Positions 1 to 9,302 of a stretch of DNA of 9,730 bases are shown here, piece by piece. A program made the position numbers and the translations under genes. The notes below the pieces were generated by a model. The model had not been told where the DNA came from and made no database searches. It worked only from the letters and a program-made list of their open reading frames with translations. Each line of letters begins with the position of its first letter. The first letter of the stretch is position 1. The stretch is from a virus (lineage: Duplodnaviria > Heunggongvirae > Uroviricota > Caudoviricetes). Location of the stretch: IMG/VR virus record IMGVR_UViG_3300018478_000064, positions 1 to 9,730 of that record. One strand, given 5' to 3'.

Positions 1-924
1 AACTCCATTAACTTTTATTTGAACTTCTCCTGATGCCGGAAGATTTACTTTCAAAGAGATAACCCATGGTTGTTTCGACGTATTTGTGTACGTGATTCCA
101 GGATACTTATCTGTGACGATCTGATACGTTTGATCTGTACCGATTAACTGAGACGCTGTTGCTAACGCGACAACACTGTCACTCTGTGCATGTCGCATAT
201 ATGGTTTTGTTGCATCATTTCTACTAAAACCAATGACACTGGCTCCATCACCAGTGACCATATCATCCAACTCTAGGTATTGGATAACATCATGAATACT
301 AGACTTACCGATGATATCTCGTCCTACCTTCGTAAAATCGGTAAGGTCTGCACTATTTTCATTGTTGAAATATGGTAGTTTATTAGTTGTTGCGATCAAA
401 TTCGCAAGAGCACTCAAAGTGTCATTCGAATCCTGCTTTTCATCTAAAGCAGTGCTTAATTCCTCTTGTGTAGTCAACAAAATTACAGTGTCTGTATCTT
501 GATGCCTGAAATACGGTTTATTTATAACACCTTTACTAAAACCAATGACATTGGCTCCATCACCAATAACAGCATTGGATATTCCAAGGTTTTCGAGAGC
601 TGTTTTCACCGTGCCGTCCGATTTGATATCGCCAAACGGATTCTTGCGGCTCAGGTATTCAACAGCAAACCCCGATCCCAGCAATTCAACAAAACCGGGC
701 AGATCACCATTATCAAGCACATCCCGTTGCGTTTTATCACTTACAAACTGGGCCAGAGCTGCAGCAATAAAGCTAGCCTGCCGAATAACCTTATTGACTT
801 GCGCACTGGAGGCTTTCCCTGCTGTAAATCCGGATAAAAGCGCGGGCAACGCTTCCCATTCCTCCTGCGATATAACATTGGCATTTCGATCCGTTGCAAA
901 CGCTTTAAAGTCATTTTTCGCCAT
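1..924 (-). CDS. Tail fibre protein, N-terminal part (P2 gpH / Mu gpS / lambda Stf family); 3' end lies beyond the window start
   Basis: Not in the ORF track because it has no stop in the window. Manual minus-strand translation from the ATG at 924..922 (TGATG overlap with the upstream gene stop) is open to position 1, about 308 codons, starting [33 protein letters not shown]. It contains ...[37 protein letters not shown], which closely resembles the conserved P2 gpH segment FPYFTGNDVASLATLTKVGRDILAKSTVAAVIEYLGL as I recall it. Position immediately after the J-like and gp48-like genes fits a fibre gene. Confidence 0.8.
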
Positions 925-1604
925 CAGAGTAATACTCCCCATGCTCCTACATCAAAACCACTGATGAATTCGTTATCCATATCAAAACCAAAAAATTTTG
1001 AGCCTTCCGATGGGGTTTCCACCGAAGGTGTTTCAATGCCACCCGCCCATACCCCGGCGGCTTTTACTGTGAGATACCCCTGTTTAATTGCCGCAATTAA
1101 CTCACGCGATACATCTGAAATATCAGTATCAGGAAAGACCCAGACCGATATCGTCATGTCCTGGTTATCGACTATCTGCATTCGCAGCCCGGATCCTGCT
1201 GTTGCCGCGTCAAGAATTGCCGGAAGCGAATCATTCCGTCCGTCCCAGTTATTAATCGCAATCTTCGCTTTAAGAATGACACGATAAGTTTCATCGCTGA
1301 GATACATGTATCCTGAATCAGGATCGTATGGTCCCTGCCATACCCCCTGATCATATCCAAGACCGTCGGTATCCCAGCTGAAATAGACACCTGAGATAGG
1401 CTGGCTGACAACACGGCTACGTCCGATCCACAATCCAAGAATGTCAAGTTGCACACCAACCGCAGAGTCAATATCAAATGCAGTAATCAGCCCTCTGGTG
1501 GCAGCCGCAACATCAATAAGTGGCCGGGTCATCAGATCAACATGCGCAAGAAATTTAGGTTTGGTGGCGTGGTAGTTCGTGATTAGTTCGGTGTATTTGC
1601 TCAT
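924..1604 (-). CDS. Baseplate/tail protein, Mu gp48 / P2 gpI-like (DUF2313, YmfQ-like)
   Basis: 226-aa ORF. Its start overlaps the stop of the upstream J-like gene (1601..1604) and its stop overlaps the fibre gene start. Size and position between the J-like gene and the fibre gene match Mu gp48 / P2 gpI. Family assigned from position and general sequence character, not from a search. Confidence 0.65.
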
Positions 1605-2800
1605 GACTCCACCGTTATAACGATATTTTCCGGGGTACAGGACGCAGATTCGTTGTATCTGATATCAATGTTTGATGACGACAAAGCCCCCGGGGATTTA
1701 CCAATCGTCAGTTCCTGAATATCGTAATAGCGTGCATTCCCGCCACTCACCACGCCAAGATTCGCCGGTGAGTAAATGCGACTTAAAAGGACCGAATCAC
1801 CGATCGTCAGACTATTGATATAGTCAGAAATAGCCTGCTGGATTTGCTGCCCTATCTGTGATGTATAACCCGTAAAAACTTTTAATTTAATCCGGGCATA
1901 AACAGGCACATCACTGGAACGCGAGAATTTGATTACATGGGGATTGCCGTATTTATCCGGAACCGTAACGGATGTTGTACCGTGAGTGGCTGTCCCCTGG
2001 CCTTTATTTCCTCTGATAGCCTGAGCAATATCCGTCACATCACCGCCATCCACAATTACAGCAACAGAGTGTGGCGGTAACCCGTTACCGTCCTCCGAGC
2101 CAGTATCGTTTTCATAGAGTTTGTGGCGGGTTACACCGGTAACATTAGAAACAGCACCATCCAGTGCTTCAAATGGGGTTATTGATGGCAACGCAACACT
2201 TTGCGACTGACGGATACGTAACTCCGCATCAGTTTCTGCCGGAGTGCCTACAGTAGCTGCAGCAGGATTGGTTACCGAAACCCAGCCACGGGTTGGCGTA
2301 TTAATTTCAGTGATAGTTCCAGCCAGCGCCGCCACTGCACCACTGACGGAACATGTTGCGGTCGCCATCACTGTACCATCCACGCCGACCACCACTGAAG
2401 CAGGCAAACGCCATATCACATTATTACCATCTTTCACGCTGCCATTAATGATGGTTGTTCCGGCAGTTCCTGTAAGAAGCAAATCAACCGTAGAGTTCGT
2501 CGCGCCTTTACGTGAAATACCATTTATTTTCACGTTACTGGTCAGTGCAGCCCCATAGCCGGTTGCCGGTGAAAAACAGTTGTAGACAGTTATCGCCGTA
2601 TTATTGGCATCATGAATCGCCAGCGCCATCAGAGCCACCATCTGGCCGTCTTTGCTGTCCGGTTCGAGGTAGGCATCACTACCATAAATCTGCTGAAAAT
2701 AGCTAATCAGGGTGCTGAGTATCGTCTGATAATCAGGCGCACTGATCCCCTCCGCGGTTACCTTTGCAGATAAACCGAGAGAATCAAGGTTCAGAGCCAT
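1601..2800 (-). CDS. Baseplate J-like protein (Mu gp47 / P2 gpJ / T4 gp6 family)
   Basis: 399-aa ORF whose start shares base 2800 with the stop of the upstream 117-aa gene. Gly/Thr/Val-rich beta-type composition and the position between the gp25-like and gp48-like genes are typical of baseplate J wedge proteins. Confidence 0.75.
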   Translation of the reverse strand: MALNLDSLGLSAKVTAEGISAPDYQTILSTLISYFQQIYGSDAYLEPDSKDGQMVALMALAIHDANNTAITVYNCFSPATGYGAALTSNVKINGISRKGATNSTVDLLLTGTAGTTIINGSVKDGNNVIWRLPASVVVGVDGTVMATATCSVSGAVAALAGTITEINTPTRGWVSVTNPAAATVGTPAETDAELRIRQSQSVALPSITPFEALDGAVSNVTGVTRHKLYENDTGSEDGNGLPPHSVAVIVDGGDVTDIAQAIRGNKGQGTATHGTTSVTVPDKYGNPHVIKFSRSSDVPVYARIKLKVFTGYTSQIGQQIQQAISDYINSLTIGDSVLLSRIYSPANLGVVSGGNARYYDIQELTIGKSPGALSSSNIDIRYNESASCTPENIVITVES

Positions 2801-3153
2801 TACGCCTCCGATGTAACAGTCGTTATTCCATAGAGAGTGTCGATTTCAGCGGAAAACATGACACGTCGGGTCGTGGTATCCACCGTCGTATTGAAAGAGA
2901 GGATTGATTTAACGCCCTGCGTTTCCAGAATGCGTTTTCTGATCGCTAGGTTGTAAGTTTCCGGTTTTTGCCTGCCCAGCACAGACTGGATCCACGGAGT
3001 CCCTTCGGTGGTGTCGAGAAACCATTGCCCATACCACAATTCGAATCGCGTTTTTACCGCCTGCGCCACGGCCTCCGGTGAGTTAATCAGCCAGGTGTCA
3101 TCACCGCTGCCAAAGGTGTAATCGCCATCGGCGTCTTCACGTCTGTATCGCAT
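2800..3153 (-). CDS. Small baseplate protein in the gpW / gp25 / Mu gp46 position (DUF2634 / XkdS-like)
   Basis: 117-aa ORF lying directly between the spike gene and the J-like gene; its start shares base 3153 with the spike gene stop. This position is held by the gp25-like wedge initiator in Mu, P2 and PBSX-type clusters. Confidence 0.6.
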   Translation of the reverse strand: MRYRREDADGDYTFGSGDDTWLINSPEAVAQAVKTRFELWYGQWFLDTTEGTPWIQSVLGRQKPETYNLAIRKRILETQGVKSILSFNTTVDTTTRRVMFSAEIDTLYGITTVTSEA

Positions 3154-3905
3154 CAGTTTACCCCGTCGGTACTGCTTCCACCGCGCTGAACACCGCCATG
3201 AGTGTGCGTATCATCGATTGGCTTGCCGTTAGCCTTCACGCTCCCCAAAAACTCAACAGCACCAGTGATTTTTGAAGCCACACCAGAAACAACAGACCCC
3301 ACCATGCCACCCATCCAGGTTAACAGACCATGAATGGTTACTTTCTCAGAAAAATCAGCCAGAGGGGCAACCACATCAAGACCACCCGGAGCGACAATTT
3401 TAATTTTCCTGGTATCAGGATTAAGCTCAAAATAGGTGCTGCCGTCGTCACTACGCAACTGTGTGGCACTGGTATTAATACCGCTAATCTTCCTCGCCTG
3501 CGACTGGGGACCGACAATACAAAACGCATCCGATAAATCATGCATTCTGTCATCGACTGGCTCCTGTATCCCGCCACTCTGCCACCAGAAATCAATACAA
3601 CGATCGGCAAAAACGACAAGACACTCATCCCCGGCTTTTACCGGAAAAGTCAACGTACAGCCTCCGCCGCGCGGGAATACCACTGGTACATCCACCAGCA
3701 GGGGTAATGTCGTCGACTGGTTGATTCCATTTGAGTCCGGCTCATAGCCTTTAATCGCAGGTTGAACAACCACTGTTACCGTGTCCGGATCAAATGACTG
3801 GACGATGCCGGGCATAGAAACACGCAGCGCCGACATGACAGAGCCAGCAAGTCTTACATCGGCCTGTTCTTTGCTACCAAGTTGAGCGCTTAAAGAAACG
3901 GGCAT
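3153..3905 (-). CDS. Baseplate central spike protein (P2 gpV / Mu gp45-like)
   Basis: 250-aa ORF. N-terminal region (PGIVQSFDPDTVTVVVQ...PVVFPRGGG...KAGDECLVVFADR) looks like the gpV OB-fold spike domain. C-terminus ends ...DDTHTHGGVQRGGSSTDGVN, with an HxH motif of the kind that coordinates iron at the gpV-type spike apex. A GGAGA Shine-Dalgarno sits about 7 nt upstream of the ATG. Confidence 0.75.
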   Translation of the reverse strand: MPVSLSAQLGSKEQADVRLAGSVMSALRVSMPGIVQSFDPDTVTVVVQPAIKGYEPDSNGINQSTTLPLLVDVPVVFPRGGGCTLTFPVKAGDECLVVFADRCIDFWWQSGGIQEPVDDRMHDLSDAFCIVGPQSQARKISGINTSATQLRSDDGSTYFELNPDTRKIKIVAPGGLDVVAPLADFSEKVTIHGLLTWMGGMVGSVVSGVASKITGAVEFLGSVKANGKPIDDTHTHGGVQRGGSSTDGVN

Positions 3906-3925
3906 TCATATGTCTCCAGAAAGTA

Positions 3926-3949
3926 AAAAACCCGCCGGGTGGCGGGTTC
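3926..3949 (-). terminator. Rho-independent terminator downstream of the 79-aa membrane protein gene
   Basis: Plus-strand text AAAAAACCCGCCGGGTGGCGGGTT. On the minus strand this reads AACCCGCCacccGGCGGGTTTTTT: a 6-8 bp GC stem, 4-nt loop and T6 tract. It lies between the 79-aa ORF stop (3965) and the spike gene start (3905). Hand-counted coordinates, +/-2 bp. Confidence 0.6.
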
Positions 3950-3964
3950 ATTATTGAAGTTTCA

Positions 3965-4204
3965 TTACTGCTTGTTTGCTTCTAACGCTTCAGCTATTCG
4001 GCGAAGATACTCATTGTTTTTAAATGAAACCATGATGCACTCAAAGAATATTCGGCAAAATACAGCACATAACAAAAGCACTAAAGCGCCAGCAGCCTTC
4101 CCATTAACAAACGTTATAATGGCGGCAACAACCAGAAGTAACATTGTGATGCCATACAGAACGTTGATGATTTTTGGAGTTATTAATTTATCAAATCCGA
4201 ACAT
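3965..4204 (-). CDS. Small inner-membrane protein, two predicted transmembrane helices and a charged C-terminal tail; accessory (moron) gene of unknown function
   Basis: 79-aa ORF MFGFDKLITPKIINVLYGITMLLLVVAAIITFVNGKAAGALVLLLCAVFCRIFFECIMVSFKNNEYLRRIAEALEANKQ. Two hydrophobic stretches of about 21 residues separated by a short NGKAAG loop, then a charged tail. An AAGGAA Shine-Dalgarno sits about 8 nt upstream of the ATG, a candidate promoter lies upstream and the terminator lies downstream. The region is visibly AT-rich. Confidence 0.6.
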   Translation of the reverse strand: MFGFDKLITPKIINVLYGITMLLLVVAAIITFVNGKAAGALVLLLCAVFCRIFFECIMVSFKNNEYLRRIAEALEANKQ

Positions 4205-4240
4205 GCGACAAATTCCTTATCGTGAAAGTAGAAGTATCAC

Positions 4241-4268
4241 ATTATAATTACGGGTGATTAATCAACAA
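4241..4268 (-). promoter_or_regulatory. Candidate sigma70 promoter for the 79-aa membrane protein gene
   Basis: On the minus strand: -35-like TTGTTG (plus 4263-4268), 16-nt spacer, perfect -10 TATAAT (plus 4241-4246), about 35 nt upstream of the ATG at 4204. A 10-bp perfect palindrome TGATTAATCA (plus about 4255-4264) overlaps the -35/spacer. Hand-counted coordinates. Confidence 0.35.
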
Positions 4269-4343
4269 TCTTTTTGCATGGAAAGGAACCGATGATTTTC
4301 GGCGCATCCATGCTGTTCTGCAGAAGCTGGACGCCAATGTGAT

Positions 4344-4679
4344 TCACTTCACCTTCCGACAATCATACGTCCAGAACTCCCGAGGCTCGTCCATATTTTT
4401 GCGGATAACTTCAACGTTGAGGATCGGCTTGCCATTTCTGGCCACAAAATCCATCCCTAACCAACGCCCATTACCCGGAATCATCCATTGGATGTTCACA
4501 TTGTCATAATCACCTTCCTGTTTGAGAAAGATGATTTTCTGTGTCTCCGGTTTCTGTCCATTAATCCTTGCAAGTCCGTCTTGCGCTTTCCAGTTGATCG
4601 TAAATGGTCCGCAACCGGTATCAGCAAAGGAAATGAAGGAGATACAGACAAGTAAAACTGTCAACAATAGTCTTTTCAT
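4344..4679 (-). CDS. Sec-exported periplasmic protein (signal peptide, two Cys), unknown function; accessory gene inside the tail operon
   Basis: 111-aa ORF. N-terminus MKRLLLTVLLVCISFISFA / DTG has a positive n-region, a 15-residue hydrophobic core and a SFA signal-peptidase I site. There is no lipobox (D at -3 relative to Cys). The mature protein has Cys near each end (DTGC...TYDC). Its start overlaps the hub gene stop as ATGA (4676-4679). Confidence 0.7.
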   Translation of the reverse strand: MKRLLLTVLLVCISFISFADTGCGPFTINWKAQDGLARINGQKPETQKIIFLKQEGDYDNVNIQWMIPGNGRWLGMDFVARNGKPILNVEVIRKNMDEPREFWTYDCRKVK

Positions 4680-5707
4680 GTGTATTTCGCCGCATCAATC
4701 CCTTTCGAGTTAAGCAATTCTTTGCCACCTTTAGCCAGGCAAAGCAGGTCCATATACCACGCCTGCCCTCGGGTGTCGCCAGTATAATCAATGCTGCCCA
4801 CAATGTAATCACCGTCAGTATTAATGCTGGCAGGCTGTGACATGCCTGGCAGACCGTTAACGTAGAGATTACCGTCGCTTTCAGACTCATCCAGTCGTGC
4901 TGGCGATTTCGCTACCTGGTCATTACTCAAAGAGGCACGGTATACAGATGCCTGATCCAGACGAATAAGCCCACCGAGCTTAATATTTGGATTAATCAGA
5001 CATCTGACATTTACGCCAGCTCCCATCGTCTGCTGTGGCATACCGATAAGCCCGGTGTTAGCATTCAACACTGTAGCAACACCAATATATTTATCTTCAG
5101 GAACAATATTTACCAGATTATTTTCATACCACCAGTTAGCTTTACACTGCCCTGCGATATGATTCATCAACCTTGATGTGTTTTGATAAACAACGCGACC
5201 CCGGGGAAATACCGTTTCCGGCATGTCAGGAACTGCGCCGGATTCGATGCCATATGGTTCGAATGATTTCATACCCAGACTGAAAAGATCGCTGTACTTC
5301 CAGCCAGCTGCCACTGTTGTTTTCACACTTGCGTTCAGATGGCCTTCCCAGCTGTCAATACACTGCAACATGATCCAACTGTCTGTGGCATTATCTTTAC
5401 CAGTGACAGTAAAACGGATATCTCCATTGAATATCATACCAACGTTTTCATCAGGATAATTACCTGCTGCATCCGGTTGCCCCTTGTATCCGGCAATAAC
5501 CTGTATACGCGAAAACTCCTTCTGCATAATCCGGTTCTGAGTGGTAGGAGACAGGTTATAAACCTTAAAATTTCCAACGAATCCATTGAATATGGTCGCA
5601 GGCATTTTCTGAATATTGAAAGTGACTTTAAGCTCAGAAATTTTTATCCCGTCGCCCTTATCATCAACAAGCAATAATTCAAAGTGACGCATCCAGTTTT
5701 TCGACAT
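4676..5707 (-). CDS. Baseplate hub-like protein (tentatively P2 gpD / Mu gp44 / T4 gp27-like)
   Basis: 343-aa ORF directly upstream, in transcription order, of the accessory insertion and the spike gene. The N-terminal segment HFELLLVDDKGDGIKISELKVTFNIQK resembles in style the late-control-D N-terminus (LISLTLTDNRGFEADQLDIELDD in P2 gpD). The functional call is positional and tentative. Confidence 0.5.
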   Translation of the reverse strand: MSKNWMRHFELLLVDDKGDGIKISELKVTFNIQKMPATIFNGFVGNFKVYNLSPTTQNRIMQKEFSRIQVIAGYKGQPDAAGNYPDENVGMIFNGDIRFTVTGKDNATDSWIMLQCIDSWEGHLNASVKTTVAAGWKYSDLFSLGMKSFEPYGIESGAVPDMPETVFPRGRVVYQNTSRLMNHIAGQCKANWWYENNLVNIVPEDKYIGVATVLNANTGLIGMPQQTMGAGVNVRCLINPNIKLGGLIRLDQASVYRASLSNDQVAKSPARLDESESDGNLYVNGLPGMSQPASINTDGDYIVGSIDYTGDTRGQAWYMDLLCLAKGGKELLNSKGIDAAKYT

Positions 5708-5709
5708 TG

Positions 5710-6012
5710 TTACTCCGTGAAAACATAGAGGTGTGAGAGCGTTCCAAGATCGAATTGCGTCGGATTCTCCTGCCCTGCCACGTCGCAGAGCACCACCAGA
5801 GAAAAACCCAGATCCATATATCGATACTGTGCCAGCAGGTCAGCCCCCGTAATCATCGGTATACCTGATATAATGGCGGAGCCATTGCTGTCAGCAAGAT
5901 CCAGAACCCAGTACTCGCCTCGCCAGATGACAGACAGGTGATAAACCGAACCGTTAATTGTGGTGGCAAAAGTCTGATTGTCAGCAACCAGTGGGATTTC
6001 TACGGCTTCCAT
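5710..6012 (-). CDS. Small phage tail-operon protein, unknown function
   Basis: 100-aa ORF tightly packed between the 217-aa ORF and the hub-like gene (2-bp gap to the hub start). It has its own Shine-Dalgarno (GGAAGGTG) overlapping the upstream stop codon. Confidence 0.6.
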   Translation of the reverse strand: MEAVEIPLVADNQTFATTINGSVYHLSVIWRGEYWVLDLADSNGSAIISGIPMITGADLLAQYRYMDLGFSLVVLCDVAGQENPTQFDLGTLSHLYVFTE

Positions 6013-6015
6013 GAA

Positions 6016-6669
6016 TCACCTTCCCAGAAATAAATTGCTCAAATACCCATCAACAGTGGAGATACCTTCTTGCGCCATCTGTGGCAGCGATTTCAGAATG
6101 GAATTATTCGGCGGCACCGTTGTTTTGGTGCCTGTATTCTGCACAGCAGACGTTCCGACTCCCTCGGTCATATTGTTTTTCGGGGCAACCCTGACTGACT
6201 GCGTGGAGGTAATAATTACTTCCCTGAGGGTAAGTGTCGCCAGAAGCACATTTTCACTACTCTTATCGGTCGTGACCTCCAGCGTTTTTATCAACATATT
6301 GTTGTAAATACGCTTGCCGGTTGTCACATCGAAAGGAATACGATTCCGCTGCAGGTTAAGCAGTTCCTGATACAGTTCTTTCGGGCTCAGCCCCAGTAAA
6401 CTGGTAGCAGTCAGGTTACTGGCAAAATCAAGCAGCGATCCGCCTCCGGAAAAACCGGTTTCCATCACAACCTCAGAAGGGCGCCTGAATGCGTGTTCTG
6501 ATATGTAACCAGCGCCCTCACCACTGGCACCAGCATTCGTGGGCTGTTCAACCGGATGTTCCGTAATTTCCAGGGCGTCAGTGTGCTTTTCGGTAATAAC
6601 CACATCAGGAATAATGATTCCTATTGAGCGGGTTCGCTGCTGCAGTAAAACAGATAAAAAGTCCATCAC
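6016..6669 (-). CDS. Phage tail protein of unknown family immediately downstream of the tape measure gene (in the position held by Mu gp43 or a distal-tail protein)
   Basis: 217-aa ORF whose start overlaps the tape measure stop as ATGA (6666-6669). No motif I can confidently assign; no LysM signature seen. Confidence 0.6.
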   Translation of the reverse strand: MMDFLSVLLQQRTRSIGIIIPDVVITEKHTDALEITEHPVEQPTNAGASGEGAGYISEHAFRRPSEVVMETGFSGGGSLLDFASNLTATSLLGLSPKELYQELLNLQRNRIPFDVTTGKRIYNNMLIKTLEVTTDKSSENVLLATLTLREVIITSTQSVRVAPKNNMTEGVGTSAVQNTGTKTTVPPNNSILKSLPQMAQEGISTVDGYLSNLFLGR

Positions 6670-8672
6670 GCAGGCCCTTTCAATTGCTGTACCGCCCTGG
6701 CATTTACAGCCCCCTGCTTGTCAGCAATCAGATTAGCCGCCTCCTGAGGGTTGTTAACTCCATGAACATTTATAACAGTCTGCTGGTTAAGGCTGCCAGC
6801 GGCGGCCTGATACGCCAGCGGGCTGTTCCAGTTTGAATAACCTTCTTTGCGCGCCATCGACTGCATCAATGCTCCCATAGTCCGGGGATCTGTAAGATTC
6901 AATATTGCATTCGGTGATACTCCCATCCATTTCGCAACATCCTGTGCATACTTTTTCGGATCGTTGTTATCACCTGCCGGGGCCCAGGTACTGACAATAT
7001 CCTGAATAGTCTGTAATGCCCGTCCGGTTGTTTTCCCGGTAAAGTAACGCATGAGCTGGTTTTTCATCGCCTCCCAGCCCTCAAGCGCTGATTCGAAAAA
7101 CCGGAACCCTTTACCGCTCACCGGGCGAATGTTCCCGGGGTTATTGTTGCGATCAGCAAGAGTGCCGCCGCCGGGGATGTCGGGCTGGACGTTGGAGCCA
7201 TGCACTACACCGTTACTCTGTCCCTGCCGGATAACTTTACCGGGTCCCCCGTGCAACCAGTCCATCCACGCAGGCCATTCACGGACCTCACTGACATCCC
7301 TGCGTCCGATATCTGTTTTTATACCAATAGCAGCCAGCGTGTCGCCGATAATTCGCTTCGTATACCTCAGTGAAGATTTTGCGCTATCGGCAATATTTTC
7401 TCTGTCACTAACAATATAGCCCGCGTAAAGCGCCCACAATTTAAGCCAGGGTGGGACCGGTAAACCTGATATTTTTCCGAAAGCCCCCAGAACCCTGGAT
7501 ACCCAGACACCCGCGATGAATGTACCGAGGATTTCCAGTGCATTTTGCCAGCCGCCAACACCATCTTTTAGTTCCAGAAGGTGATCACGAAGCCAGGTGA
7601 TCGCATCCTTCGCTTTATCTATTGCCGGTTGCCATTTTTCCCAGTCGATAAGACTGTTACCGCCTTCTTTCCATGTTTTGTAGTCTTCCCACAAGAGACC
7701 GAGAGCCACGATCAGACCGGTAATCAGCCCTATAGGTGACATCCAGAAAGTAGAGTTAAGTATCCGCATGGCGACAACCAGACCGCCGATAACCTCTATC
7801 AGGGTTTTCGTTTCGGCATCCAGTTTCCCCCACCACTCGATGATATCTCCGACACCATCGACTATCCGAAATGCTACCCGCCCGACTATCTCACCCAGCC
7901 AGAGGATCCCCTTTATGACCTTTGTGATGGTGACTTCAATTTTGGGAAAATTTTCAATTATCTTTTTGCGCAGGTTATCAATCTGCCCCGCCAGTCCGTC
8001 CGCAAGATTCGATCCGATTTTGTCCCGCGCCATCCCGGCCATTTCACCGAGCGATTTCAGTGAGGTCATAAACCGGTTTGACGATAAGGCAGCCTGATCG
8101 GCATTAAATCCGATCGCTTTCACCATTTCTGAATACTGAGCGCTGAACTGCCCCACTCCGCGACGCATAGCCATCAGGGTATTTTCGTCAATGCCCAGCA
8201 TCTGCGCATACTGGTTAGCCCGGTAATACGGCATGCTGCTGAGTTTCTGTCCAACGCCCGTAAAGATAGCAGCCATGTCACGCATGTTACCGCTGGCATC
8301 ACGGGTCTGTACGCCCAGGCGATTCAGAAAGCCTTCTGCTCCGGGATTGTTACGAATAAACCGGGAGAGGCTTTCCAGAGAAGATCGCGCAGCGTCCACG
8401 CTGCCGCCAACCTGCGAAACCGCATAGCCAATAGACTGAATTCCCTGGACTGTCGCGCCGGTGCGCTGTGACGCCCAGTAAAGATTATCCAGACCGGAGG
8501 CGATCTTAGCCGTGAAGGCCACCACGGACAGCGCGGCTCCTTCAACGGCCAGCCCCATTTTGATGACATTTGCAGTTGTACCGGCGAGGACAGAACCGAA
8601 TTTTTTCGCTCCTGCATCATCCACACTGAAGCCAAGCGAGACGAGGAAATCTTTAATAGTTTCAGCGTTCAT
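6666..8672 (-). CDS. Tail tape measure protein
   Basis: Largest ORF in the window. The track starts it at a TTG (8693, 675 aa). The ATG at 8672, preceded by GGAGAGAGG about 5 nt upstream, is the more likely start (about 668 aa). Ala/Gly/Ser-rich helical N-terminal region, a central hydrophobic block (LIEVIGGLVVAMRILNSTFWMSPIGLITGLIVALGLLW) and a position right after a frameshifted chaperone gene are all typical of tape measure proteins. Confidence 0.9.
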   Translation of the reverse strand: MNAETIKDFLVSLGFSVDDAGAKKFGSVLAGTTANVIKMGLAVEGAALSVVAFTAKIASGLDNLYWASQRTGATVQGIQSIGYAVSQVGGSVDAARSSLESLSRFIRNNPGAEGFLNRLGVQTRDASGNMRDMAAIFTGVGQKLSSMPYYRANQYAQMLGIDENTLMAMRRGVGQFSAQYSEMVKAIGFNADQAALSSNRFMTSLKSLGEMAGMARDKIGSNLADGLAGQIDNLRKKIIENFPKIEVTITKVIKGILWLGEIVGRVAFRIVDGVGDIIEWWGKLDAETKTLIEVIGGLVVAMRILNSTFWMSPIGLITGLIVALGLLWEDYKTWKEGGNSLIDWEKWQPAIDKAKDAITWLRDHLLELKDGVGGWQNALEILGTFIAGVWVSRVLGAFGKISGLPVPPWLKLWALYAGYIVSDRENIADSAKSSLRYTKRIIGDTLAAIGIKTDIGRRDVSEVREWPAWMDWLHGGPGKVIRQGQSNGVVHGSNVQPDIPGGGTLADRNNNPGNIRPVSGKGFRFFESALEGWEAMKNQLMRYFTGKTTGRALQTIQDIVSTWAPAGDNNDPKKYAQDVAKWMGVSPNAILNLTDPRTMGALMQSMARKEGYSNWNSPLAYQAAAGSLNQQTVINVHGVNNPQEAANLIADKQGAVNARAVQQLKGPA

Positions 8673-9302
8673 TATCCTCTCTCCATTTCTCAATGCGCCG
8701 CTGGTTATCCGCTTTTACCGCCAGATGGTCATTCAAGAGAGCAATGTCGTACAAATCGACAGAGCCATCTTTAAGTGCTGTATAAGGAATTAACCCGGCG
8801 TCAACCGGATTGAGAAGGTAGGACAGCCCGTCCGGCAGGCTGTTAAACGTCAGCCCTGTTGCAGGCTCTGCGTCGTGCTGGTAAGGGGTGTAGGCAAAAA
8901 ATTTCCCAGCGAATCGGCGACCACCCGCGCCACCAGATGAAGCATGACCAGCAGGTCAATATCATCAAACATCAGTTCGCCCCGGGTAAATACCGGCACC
9001 CATCCGTCCATATGACGCCGCGATACCACCGCAAGACAGGGATGAATAATCGCATCGGTGTCATCTTCGGTCAGGGAAGACAGTTCCTCAGCGATACGCG
9101 GGAGCATGGTTTCAAACACCGGTTTTAACTGCTCGAATTTCACGGTGTCGATTTTGCCGTCAGCAGGCAAACGGGAGCGAATGCTCCCGAAATCTGACAT
9201 CATTCCTGCCAGCACCGGCAGAAGTTTGCGGGTCACTTTCAGCTGGTCAAAAACGCTGAGTTTTGCCACGCGATATTTCACGCCTTTGATTTCGAATTCC
9301 AT
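8662..9302 (-). CDS. Predicted -1 frameshift fusion product of the tail assembly chaperone (gpGT-like, about 200 aa)
   Basis: My hand translation of the minus strand finds the -1 frame open from the slippery site, through the whole 157-bp gap, to a TGA at about 8664..8662 that overlaps the first codons of the tape measure gene. About 80 codons, ...KFFAYTPYQHDAEPATGLTFNSLPDGLSYLLNPVDAGLIPYTALKDGSVDLYDIALLNDHLAVKADNQRRIEKWREDNER. Confidence 0.5.
8850..9302 (-). CDS. Tail assembly chaperone (gpG-like, short product)
   Basis: 150-aa acidic ORF immediately upstream of the tape measure gene, with a slippery sequence near its 3' end and an open -1 frame downstream. Confidence 0.7.
   Translation of the reverse strand: MEFEIKGVKYRVAKLSVFDQLKVTRKLLPVLAGMMSDFGSIRSRLPADGKIDTVKFEQLKPVFETMLPRIAEELSSLTEDDTDAIIHPCLAVVSRRHMDGWVPVFTRGELMFDDIDLLVMLHLVARVVADSLGNFLPTPLTSTTQSLQQG
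8896..8907 (-). other. Candidate -1 programmed ribosomal frameshift (slippery) site
   Basis: Minus-strand text CTG GGA AAT TTT TTG in the chaperone frame contains G_GGA_AAT (same class as lambda G_GGA_AAG), immediately followed by A_AAT_TTT and T_TTT_TTG, all fitting the X_XXY_YYZ rule. Hand-counted coordinates. Confidence 0.5.

What the first reader, a model, noticed from the sequence alone, without database searches (positions are those of the whole stretch)
3965..4204. Autonomously expressed 79-aa two-helix membrane protein (Imm-like or holin-like topology) inside a tail operon
The topology (short N-terminus, two hydrophobic helices separated by a 6-residue loop, highly charged C-terminal tail KNNEYLRRIAEALEANKQ) is shared by T4 Imm-type exclusion proteins, class II holins and small membrane toxins. 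Location in the tail operon rather than a lysis cassette, plus its own TATAAT promoter and terminator, argues for a lysogen-expressed function over a lysis role. It could equally be a toxic membrane peptide.
Basis: partly seen in the sequence, partly recalled or inferred. Interest (0 to 1): 0.6.

Follow-up and report, generated by a model that had tools for sequence, protein, structure and literature searches.

The report
Prophage moron encoding DUF4282 membrane protein
A small accessory gene sits in a swappable cargo slot of an E. coli prophage tail operon; it encodes an uncharacterised two-helix inner-membrane protein (DUF4282) that may stop other phages injecting DNA, though this is untested.

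Summary
Window 3965-4204 (minus strand) is a real 79-aa gene. It has two hydrophobic helices, a 6-residue loop and a charged C-terminal helix. It lies between a secreted STY1065-like gene and the spike gene of an E. coli prophage tail operon.

The protein belongs to Pfam DUF4282. No paper in the searched library mentions that family.

The gene behaves as a classical moron:
- It has the lowest G+C in the window.
- It has a perfect TATAAT with a weak -35.
- An intrinsic terminator follows it.
- 83 of about 300 related E. coli prophages carry it. Others carry toxin-antitoxin pairs, Arc/antirepressor modules or other membrane proteins in the slot, or nothing.

One correction: the terminator belongs to the slot, not to the gene.

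The protein is not the holin, because a full lysis cassette lies elsewhere in the prophage. It is not homologous to T4 Imm.

Homologues recur as optional cargo directly after the tape-measure gene in three other phage tail types. They also occur on some bacterial chromosomes. Distant relatives carry exactly five tandem copies, which hints at a pentamer.

Best guess, at about 0.4: an inner-membrane blocker of phage DNA entry that works like HK97 gp15 or T4 Imm. I rate it a new member of a known kind, of moderate interest.

The parts
3965..4204 (-). 79-aa ORF encoding a DUF4282 two-helix inner-membrane protein (TM1 about residues 12-33, loop NGKAAG, TM2 about 40-60 with R51/E55, C-terminal amphipathic helix FKNNEYLRRIAEALE)
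   Evidence: PF14110, 42.2 bits; PHROG 12129; hydropathy; conserved motifs; AF2 hairpin, pLDDT 88; pN much lower than pS
4241..4268 (-). Promoter-like site inside the cargo-specific DNA: -35-like TTGTTG (4268-4263), 16-nt spacer, perfect -10 TATAAT (4246-4241). The inferred transcription start is about 4234-4237.
   Evidence: Read from the sequence and checked. Not flagged by the scanner because the -35 matches only 3 of 6. Identical in the O145:H28 copy. Function is inferred, not shown.
4214..4218 (-). Ribosome-binding site AAGGA, 9 nt before the ATG
3925..3949 (-). Intrinsic-terminator-like hairpin GAACCCGCC-ACCC-GGCGGGTTT plus T-run, directly before the spike RBS. It is a resident feature of the slot, not of the cargo.
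   Evidence: 9 pairs, 6 G-C; a hairpin plus T-run is kept in relatives with other cargo or an empty slot (41 of 55 with the same CCCGC/GCGGG stem).
3953..4272 (-). Cargo-specific segment of about 320 bp (promoter-like site, RBS, ORF), 37% G+C against 49% for the rest of the window. Its boundaries come from comparison with relatives that carry other cargo.
   Evidence: (lowest-GC 240-nt window starts at 4011)
4273..4343 (-). Conserved left flank of the slot. This non-coding spacer matches the 3' end of other alleles of the STY1065-like gene and is shared by relatives with different cargo.
   Evidence: matches covering only query 350-428; L013; small ORFs reading ...NYIGVQLLQNSMDAPKIIGSFPCKK in L290 and L325
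4344..4679 (-). Left border gene: 111-aa STY1065/STY2022-like protein with an N-terminal signal peptide. It overlaps the hub gene stop by 4 nt.
   Evidence: PHROG 3443, unknown function; RefSeq name
3153..3905 (-). Right border gene: membrane-puncturing spike protein with a GpV apex motif
   Evidence: (spike N-terminal domain E=1.3e-44; Apex motif)
6666..8693 (-). Tape measure protein (675 aa) with hydrophobic segments at about residues 297-335 and 385-405. It is the inferred kind of target for an entry-blocking membrane protein.
   Evidence: weak TIGR01760 match; relatives annotated as lytic transglycosylase; clusters with the GF-2 ORF18 TMP

Best explanation
Shown:
- The 79-aa gene is a horizontally acquired accessory gene (a moron) in a hypervariable cargo slot of the tail operon of a lambdoid E. 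coli prophage with a contractile tail.
- It encodes a member of the uncharacterised DUF4282 family. The protein is a helical hairpin of two transmembrane helices. Its conserved parts are an N-terminal LITPKI motif, an RxFFE motif in TM2 and a juxtamembrane FKNNEYLRRI helix.

Inferred:
- Both ends face the cytoplasm. This follows from the positive-inside rule and from tandem-repeat relatives.
- The protein assembles into a homo-oligomer, probably a pentamer.
- In the lysogen it is transcribed from its own weak sigma-70 promoter and stopped by the slot's resident terminator. During lytic growth it is also read as part of the Q-antiterminated late transcript.

Most likely function, inferred by analogy and context: superinfection exclusion at the inner membrane. 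On this reading the protein interferes with the channel that an incoming phage's tape measure or ejection proteins open for DNA transfer. HK97 gp15, T4 Imm and P22 SieA work this way. The variable TM1 and loop would set specificity, and the conserved TM2 and C-terminal helix would form the oligomer core.
For: Moron status:
- The gene has the lowest G+C in the window (0.375 against 0.489).
- A TATAAT lies in the cargo-specific DNA and a terminator lies downstream.
- The gene is present in 83 of about 285-313 related E. coli prophages.
- The slot is empty in L309 and L333. Elsewhere it holds Phd/Doc, a YafO toxin, TPR-containing two-gene pairs, Arc plus P22-type antirepressor, or a zinc-ribbon/two-hydrophobic-segment/OB-fold protein.
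- A Q-type antiterminator lies upstream of the late operon.

Membrane hairpin.

Link to DNA entry:
- Homologues are optional cargo directly after the TMP gene in Klebsiella siphovirus-type prophages.
- They hold the same position in a second group of contractile-tail-type prophages, here called group 2, in 27 of 38 loci; the remaining loci that could be resolved mostly carry other small hydrophobic or signal-peptide proteins there.
- They also follow the TMP gene in Edwardsiella phage GF-2-like phages, with a 0-nt gap.
[quoted passage not shown] T4 Imm binds the TMP (bioRxiv 10.64898/2026.03.06.709160).

Oligomer: four full-length distant relatives each hold exactly five tandem DUF4282 units.

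Not the holin.
Against: - There is no experimental evidence for this family at all.
- It does not match any PADLOC defence model.
- The most conserved parts (N-terminal motif, TM2 R/E, C-terminal helix) face the cytoplasm and are shared with chromosomal homologues in Serratia, Enterobacter and non-coli Escherichia. That fits a conserved cellular partner or an intrinsic activity better than recognition of diverse phage TMPs.
- The periplasmic loop is only about 6 residues.
- The same slots also carry cargo unrelated to entry, such as toxin-antitoxin pairs and immI modules. Position next to the TMP gene may only mark a permissive insertion site.
- The promoter has a weak -35 and was not flagged by the scanner.
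- In two lineages there is no room for a promoter at all.
Confidence: 0.4

Rival explanations
1. Lysogenic-conversion factor unrelated to phages. On this reading the protein is a small inner-membrane regulator that binds a host membrane protein such as a transporter or sensor, as SgrT, AcrZ, MgrB or MgtS do. Phages captured it from the bacterial chromosome.
For: Chromosomal homologues sit at fixed non-prophage positions. Examples are accA-DUF4282-yaeR/tilS in E. ruysiae, E. whittamii and Pseudocitrobacter, between two GntR-aminotransferase genes in Enterobacter and Lelliottia, and near an epimerase and a PTS EIIBCA gene in Serratia. The strictly conserved residues face the cytoplasm or lie within the membrane and are shared by phage and chromosomal copies.
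Against: No conserved neighbour gene points to a partner. Phage copies form clades apart from the chromosomal ones in a rough tree. Recurrence right after TMP genes in several unrelated tail modules is not explained. Five-fold tandem relatives suggest a self-assembling unit rather than a single-helix-type regulator.
Confidence: 0.2
2. Membrane-depolarising effector, either a toxin or an abortive-infection protein. The oligomeric hairpin ring would be a latent channel that opens on a trigger such as an incoming phage or stress, collapsing the proton-motive force and killing or arresting the cell.
For: The topology is small and two-helix, with conserved charged residues (R51, E55) inside TM2. 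Five-fold tandem relatives suggest a ring of ten helices. The same slot carries toxin-antitoxin cargo (Phd/Doc, YafO) in relatives. Chromosomal copies look like single-gene islets, present in some Escherichia species and absent from all 5,426 complete E. coli genomes.
Against: There is no partner antitoxin gene, no promoter-like site on the opposite strand, and no Rfam match for an antisense RNA. At 79 aa with two helices it is unlike typical type I toxins. The protein is 100% identical in about 30 IMG/VR prophage contigs with no sign of decay. It does not match any PADLOC model.
Confidence: 0.15
3. Lysis-timing regulator, meaning an antiholin or accessory pinholin-like protein. It would be expressed late with the tail genes and would modulate the canonical holin or the membrane potential.
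For: The protein has class II holin-like features: two transmembrane helices, both ends probably cytoplasmic, and a charged C-terminal tail. It is co-oriented with the late operon and is read through by Q-modified polymerase. In group-2 phages it lies three genes upstream of a holin, SAR-like lysozyme and DUF2514 cassette, with no room for a promoter of its own. There is a precedent: mycobacteriophage D29 encodes its lysis regulator LysA2b downstream of the TMP gene among minor tail genes (bioRxiv 10.64898/2026.08.27.747656).
Against: It is optional in every lineage examined. Complete lysis cassettes with their own holins exist in the window-type prophage and in group 2. One search returned no holin family for it. 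Non-prophage chromosomal homologues exist.
Confidence: 0.12
4. Tail morphogenesis or ejection helper. On this reading the membrane protein is needed for handling the hydrophobic tape measure protein during assembly, or is carried or used during the phage's own DNA delivery.
For: It lies immediately next to the TMP gene, with 0-16 nt gaps, in GF-2-like and group-2 phages. TMPs in these phages have hydrophobic segments.
Against: It is absent from most otherwise near-identical tail modules, about 70% of the window type and most Klebsiella-type loci. It is replaceable by unrelated cargo and present on chromosomes without phage genes.
Confidence: 0.05

Closest known systems
Pfam DUF4282 (PF14110) / PHROG 12129
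   Same: The protein is a sequence member: 42.2 bits against a gathering score of 27, and full-length PHROG 12129 at E=8e-48. RefSeq annotates the identical protein WP_000466689.1 as a DUF4282 domain-containing protein.
   Different: The family has no known function, and no paper in the searched library mentions it. Membership therefore explains nothing about mechanism.
HK97 gp15 (YebO-related moron-encoded superinfection exclusion protein)
   Same: Both are small inner-membrane proteins encoded by a moron inside a tail operon, with deviant G+C and promoter/terminator signals. Both have chromosomal homologues in Enterobacteriaceae (PMC3594210). In other lineages the DUF4282 gene also sits next to the TMP gene.
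   Different: The family is different; YebO was not among the Pfam matches returned. This protein has two transmembrane helices. In the window it lies four genes downstream of the TMP gene. No exclusion phenotype has been tested.
T4 Imm (Pfam Imm_superinfect)
   Same: Size is similar (79 against 83 aa) and both are hydrophobic helical membrane proteins encoded by a phage. Imm blocks DNA translocation by binding the TMP, and a conserved Arg in its helical core is needed (bioRxiv 10.64898/2026.03.06.709160). DUF4282 likewise has an invariant Arg in TM2.
   Different: There is no detectable homology (hhalign probability 0.2%), and Imm_superinfect was not among the Pfam matches returned. Imm has its N-terminus in the periplasm and more helices. 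Imm is an early gene of a virulent phage, not a prophage moron.
P22 SieA
   Same: [quoted passage not shown]
   Different: The sequence is unrelated, the protein is larger, it is encoded outside the tail operon, and its targets are podovirus ejection proteins.
Class II holins / pinholins (e.g. phage 21 S68)
   Same: They share a two-transmembrane-helix layout, a probable N-in/C-in topology, a charged C-terminal tail and likely oligomerisation. The holin side of this comparison rests on my own knowledge of the family.
   Different: The gene is not in a lysis cassette. The prophage has its own lambda-family holin, and group-2 phages have their own holin too. One search returned no holin family. 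The gene is optional, and chromosomal homologues exist.
[quoted passage not shown]
   Same: They are small helical inner-membrane proteins encoded next to the gene of the membrane-inserting protein they neutralise. The T4 Imm study draws this analogy. It would fit TMP-DUF4282 adjacency.
   Different: Homology was not tested, so this is purely an architectural analogy.

Membership tests
Pfam DUF4282 (PF14110) | Score above the family's gathering threshold over most of the model | tested here: met
   42.2 bits against a cut-off of 27, residues 2-71 on model positions 2-85 of 86. All 86 full-length hits carry PF14110.
Pfam DUF4282 (PF14110) | Two hydrophobic helices forming a membrane hairpin | tested here: met
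   Hydropathy; AF2 helices 7-32 and 36-77, pLDDT 88. Membrane insertion itself is not testable here.
Moron (as defined for HK97/HK022; PMC3594210) | Extra gene between two genes that are adjacent in related phages | tested here: met
   In L309 and L333 the STY1065-like and spike genes are 50-75 nt apart with no ORF between them. 83 of about 285-313 E. coli prophages of this type carry the gene.
Moron (as defined for HK97/HK022; PMC3594210) | Nucleotide composition different from the neighbours | tested here: met
   G+C is 0.375 against 0.489. The lowest-GC 240-nt window of the whole 9.7 kb starts at 4011.
Moron (as defined for HK97/HK022; PMC3594210) | Own promoter | tested here: inconclusive
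   There is a perfect TATAAT at 4246-4241, but the -35 is TTGTTG (3 of 6) and the scanner did not flag the site. The Klebsiella cassette has TTGATA-18-TATAAC, read. Group-2 and GF-2-like copies have no room for a promoter.
Moron (as defined for HK97/HK022; PMC3594210) | Own factor-independent terminator | tested here: inconclusive
   A strong terminator-like hairpin follows the gene. However, it is resident in the slot whatever the cargo, so it is not brought by this gene.
Moron (as defined for HK97/HK022; PMC3594210) | Expression from the repressed prophage | not testable with these tools
   This needs RNA-seq or 5' RACE of a lysogen.
T4 Imm family (Pfam Imm_superinfect) | Sequence or profile similarity to Imm | tested here: not met
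   Imm_superinfect was not among the Pfam matches returned at E<=0.1. hhalign of the 31-sequence profile against T4 Imm gives probability 0.2% over 8 columns.
Holins (class II / pinholin) | Encoded in the lysis cassette next to the endolysin and required for lysis | tested here: not met
   The lysis cassette (lambda-family holin, glycoside hydrolase, lysis protein) is at L001 37953-39232, about 17 kb from the gene. Group-2 phages have a separate holin next to the lysozyme. The requirement for lysis is not testable here.
Holins (class II / pinholin) | Match to a holin family profile | tested here: not met
   Pfam returned only DUF4282 and a sub-threshold YbhQ match; PHROGs returned only two unknown-function families; NCBIfam returned four sub-threshold matches, none a holin.
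HK97 gp15 / YebO family | Sequence similarity to YebO/gp15 | tested here: not met
   YebO was not among the Pfam matches returned at E<=0.1. A direct comparison with the gp15 sequence was not made.
Type I toxin-antitoxin toxin | Small hydrophobic peptide with an overlapping or adjacent antisense RNA antitoxin | tested here: not met
   The protein is 79 aa with two helices. No promoter-like site lies on the opposite strand in 3700-4900. There is no Rfam match of that kind. A novel sRNA cannot be excluded.
Known anti-phage defence systems (PADLOC-DB 2.0) | Match to a defence-system protein model | tested here: not met
   No match at E<=1.

The most novel reading that the evidence does not exclude
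DUF4282 proteins may be a widespread, so far unrecognised family of pentameric inner-membrane rings that neutralise the membrane channel formed by phage tape measure proteins. Phages with both contractile and non-contractile tails would carry the gene beside their TMP gene, much as a colicin operon carries its immunity gene. Bacteria would have fixed copies on their chromosomes as standing defence. The gene would travel between unrelated tail operons through cargo slots marked by a shared terminator-RBS boundary element.
Probability: 0.2. Interest if true: 0.65.

Novelty: new member of a known kind. Interest (0 to 1): 0.42.

Why it matters
If the exclusion reading is right, DUF4282 would be a new family of injection blockers. 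It would span Escherichia, Klebsiella, Erwinia, Pantoea, Edwardsiella and related prophages. That bears on phage-therapy host range and on how tape measure proteins open the inner membrane.

Whatever the function, the locus is a clear example of a tail-operon cargo slot. The slot has a fixed upstream gene, exchangeable cargo, a resident terminator and then the RBS of the next tail gene. It could be mined systematically for prophage-encoded accessory and defence genes.

If the protein turns out to be a host-physiology factor or a toxin, it remains an ordinary moron of limited wider interest.

Tried and rejected
1. Holin. Rejected because the complete prophage has a canonical lysis cassette elsewhere. 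Group-2 phages that carry a DUF4282 gene also have their own holin; my first ORF picking hid it and one search recovered it.

2. Homology to T4 Imm. Rejected.

3. Known defence, holin, Imm or YebO families. Pfam, PHROGs, NCBIfam and PADLOC gave nothing beyond DUF4282 and PHROG 12129.

4. Solved structures and fold searches. There was no significant match by PDB sequence profile, Foldseek PDB or Foldseek BFVD. A simple helical hairpin is uninformative in such searches.

5. Packing of the five-repeat relative. AlphaFold2 gave pLDDT 58 and pTM 0.39, too poor to say whether the hairpins form a ring.

6. Antisense RNA or type I antitoxin. No Rfam match and no promoter-like site on the opposite strand.

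7. "The terminator travels with the gene". I first inferred this from its conservation in the Erwinia and Klebsiella copies. I then rejected it, because empty slots and slots with other cargo keep the hairpin.

8. Literature. No paper mentions DUF4282 or PF14110. The Tai tail-assembly-interference paper and the 2024 exclusion review added nothing specific.

9. A chromosomal copy in E. coli itself. None was found in 5,426 complete genomes.

10. Source organisms of the tandem-repeat proteins. The look-up returned no names.

Full report
**What is in the window**

All genes in the window read on the minus strand and form the distal part of a contractile-tail module.
- The upstream genes are a tape measure protein (6666-8693), a Dit-like protein (6016-6669), a baseplate plug (5710-6012) and a hub (4676-5707).
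- Next comes a 111-aa STY1065/STY2022-like protein with a signal peptide (4344-4679).
- The finding follows at 3965-4204.
- The downstream genes are the spike (3153-3905), a gp25-like sheath initiator (2800-3153), baseplate J (1601-2800) and DUF2612 (924-1604).
- A tail-fibre gene runs off the left end.
- The same arrangement at 99% identity is found in E. coli chromosomes. In strain IGC_RcoliRes_1.1 it belongs to a full prophage. That prophage has a DUF1133 protein that also matches Phage_antitermQ above its cut-off (27.5 bits against 26), a lambda-family holin, a glycoside hydrolase and a lysis protein.

**Check of the observation**

- The ORF, its 79-aa product and the described topology are all there.
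- Hydrophobic segments span about residues 12-33 and 40-60. The loop is NGKAAG, and the C-terminal tail is charged.
- AlphaFold2 with 31 homologues gives two long helices, 7-32 and 36-77, at mean pLDDT 88.
- The gene is real. It matches Pfam DUF4282 at 42.2 bits against a cut-off of 27, and PHROG 12129 at E=8e-48.
- Eighty-seven homologue clusters occur across Enterobacterales.
- Non-synonymous divergence is far below synonymous divergence: pN 0.21 against pS 0.64 for the Erwinia orthologue, with synonymous sites saturated for more distant ones.
- The -10 TATAAT (4246-4241), the RBS AAGGA (4218-4214) and the terminator hairpin (3949-3925) are present.
- The -35 is weak (TTGTTG, 16-nt spacer), so the promoter scanner did not list this site.

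**It is an add-on in a cargo slot**

- The gene and its upstream signals have 37% G+C against 49% for the rest. This is the lowest-GC stretch of the window.
- Of 5,426 complete E. coli genomes, 285-313 carry this tail module but only 83 carry the gene.
- In complete E. coli genomes the same slot holds a 151-aa ORF on the other strand, a 190-aa protein with a YafO toxin, or a TPR protein with a 136-aa partner. In phage vB_EcoM-606R2 it holds a 170-aa protein.
- Among IMG/VR relatives with a resolved slot, 11 carry the DUF4282 gene.
- The others carry TPR-containing two-gene pairs, Phd/Doc, Arc plus a P22-type antirepressor, or a zinc-ribbon protein with two hydrophobic segments and an OB fold. 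Two have nothing.
- Comparing these variants places the cargo-specific DNA at about 3953-4272. That segment includes the promoter-like site.
- Positions 4273-4343 are a conserved left flank.

**Correction about the terminator**

- I first took the hairpin to travel with the gene, because it is conserved after the Erwinia and Klebsiella homologues.
- That inference is wrong. Relatives with any cargo, or none, keep a hairpin plus T-run directly before the spike RBS. Forty-one of 55 have the same CCCGC/GCGGG stem, and most of the rest have another G+C-rich hairpin.
- The slots after the TMP gene in two other phage groups have the same layout.
- The terminator is therefore slot hardware. It would stop transcription that starts in the cargo while the prophage is repressed. 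Q-modified polymerase would read through it during lytic growth.

**Relatives elsewhere**

- In Klebsiella siphovirus-type prophages the homologue sits between the TMP gene and the first minor tail gene.
- That slot is empty in many relatives and holds unrelated small proteins in others.
- In a second group of prophages with contractile-tail-type genes (group 2) the homologue follows the TMP gene by 8-16 nt in 27 of 38 loci.
- Of the remaining 11 loci, those that could be resolved mostly carry other small hydrophobic or signal-peptide proteins there.
- In Edwardsiella phage GF-2 and similar contigs it starts at the TMP stop codon. The GF-2 TMP clusters with the window's TMP.
- Non-phage copies also exist:
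  - between accA and yaeR/tilS in E. ruysiae, E. whittamii and Pseudocitrobacter;
  - between two GntR-aminotransferase genes in Enterobacter and its relatives;
  - near an epimerase and a PTS gene in Serratia.
- The accA-linked copy is absent from all complete E. coli genomes.
- A rough neighbour-joining tree puts the phage copies mostly apart from the chromosomal ones.

**What the sequence family says**

- Invariant positions cluster in three places: the N-terminal LITPKI motif, RxFFE in TM2 (R51 and E55 of the full protein), and FKNNEYLRRI just after TM2.
- TM1 and the loop vary.
- A profile search of 1.84 billion representative proteins found 633 relatives, nearly all stand-alone proteins of 77-140 aa.
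- Four full-length relatives each contain exactly five tandem units, and a fifth, truncated one has at least three.
- Tandem hairpins require both ends on the same side of the membrane.
- Their Arg/Lys-rich linkers place that side in the cytoplasm.
- Five units in one chain suggest that the single-unit proteins work as pentamers.
- A structure prediction of one tandem protein was too poor to show the packing.

**What it is not**

- It is not the holin. Lysis cassettes with their own holins exist in the window-type prophage and in group 2.
- It is not a relative of T4 Imm.
- It does not match any PADLOC defence model, any solved structure by sequence or any fold-library entry at a meaningful level.
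- There is no sign of an antisense RNA.

**Most likely mechanism**

I favour superinfection exclusion at the inner membrane, at about 0.4.

The arguments rest on context and analogy:
- The gene is a moron-type accessory gene.
- The protein is a small inner-membrane protein.
- It has been placed repeatedly and independently next to the TMP gene, in slots where the alternative cargo is often also an envelope protein.
- Precedents exist. [quoted passage not shown] T4 Imm binds the TMP directly (bioRxiv 10.64898/2026.03.06.709160). P22 SieA blocks the ejection-protein conduit (PMC10883804).

The arguments against are substantial:
- The conserved surface is cytoplasmic and shared with chromosomal copies.
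- The periplasmic loop is tiny.
- The slots also hold cargo unrelated to entry.
- Nothing has been tested experimentally.

The rivals, with my estimates, are:
- a host-membrane regulator (0.2);
- a latent channel acting as a toxin or abortive-infection effector (0.15);
- a lysis-timing regulator (0.12), with the D29 LysA2b precedent from bioRxiv 10.64898/2026.08.27.747656;
- a tail-assembly helper (0.05).

**Verdict**

- Its reading as a lysogen-expressed exclusion protein or toxin, rather than a lysis protein, is partly supported.
- The family is uncharacterised, but the kind of element is well known: a moron encoding a small inner-membrane protein.
- I therefore rate it a new member of a known kind, with moderate interest.

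Noticed in passing
window 3925-3949 and 3912-3917; L211, L303, L331, L335 and L342-L421: A 33-nt element, AACCCGCYNCGGCGGGTTTTTTWATGCCYGGAG, combines a terminator hairpin, a T-run and an RBS. It lies in front of at least 14 unrelated downstream gene families, including TMP, minor tail, spike and fibre-like genes. In L347, L357, L380 and L395 it occurs twice about 2.6-2.9 kb apart, roughly the length of an 883-aa TMP gene; what lies between the copies was not checked. The window carries a close variant of it. It looks like a shared boundary element of enterobacterial phage tail operons, and cargo genes sit just upstream of it.
   Followed up: partly
window 4344-4679 (minus strand): A 111-aa STY1065/STY2022-like protein has a clear N-terminal signal peptide (MKRLLLTVLLVCISFISFA/DT). 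Its gene overlaps the hub gene stop by 4 nt. A secreted protein coupled to a baseplate gene is odd. It matches PHROG 3443 (unknown function), has no Pfam match, and is absent from GF-2-like relatives.
   Followed up: partly
window 4273-4343: The spacer between the STY1065-like stop and the cargo matches the 3' coding end of other alleles of the STY1065-like gene (for example L013). In relatives with different cargo it reads as ...NYIGVQLLQNSMDAPKIIGSFPCKK. It is either a recombination scar or the conserved left anchor of the slot.
   Followed up: partly
P0124, P0131, P0174, P0230 (distant relatives, not in the window): These proteins of 507-632 aa are made of exactly five tandem DUF4282 hairpins. 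Three of them end in one to three C-terminal zinc-ribbon CxxC motifs. Their source organisms were not named by the look-up.
   Followed up: partly
L337 4375-5043 and L196 3140-3922: Envelope proteins with a Pfam tRNA_anti-like OB-fold domain occur as alternative cargo in two places. One has a zinc ribbon and two hydrophobic segments; the other has a signal peptide. They are found in the hub/spike slot and in the after-TMP slot of group-2 phages. These are the same two kinds of slot that hold DUF4282 genes.
   Followed up: no
L164 4282-9587; L135, L141, L143: Group-2 prophage contigs show this gene order: chaperone, TMP, DUF4282, Dit-like, plug-like, holin, SAR-like lysozyme, DUF2514. Non-phage-looking genes follow directly, with no hub, spike or baseplate J genes in the stretch read. 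The tail module may be unusual or truncated, or the element may be defective.
   Followed up: no
window 1-926 (minus strand): A tail-fibre-like gene starts just downstream of DUF2612 ([26 protein letters not shown]...). It runs off the left end of the window, so at least 308 codons are open. In L001 the corresponding gene is a shorter 264-aa phage tail protein, so the fibre region differs between otherwise 99%-identical prophages.
   Followed up: no
L005 7408-9316 (Edwardsiella phage GF-2) and L328, L320, L289, L294, L312, L318: P22 immI-like modules (Arc/Mnt-type repressors plus an antirepressor) are inserted inside tail operons. In GF-2 the module lies right after the DUF4282 gene. In E. coli relatives it occupies the hub/spike slot.
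   Followed up: no
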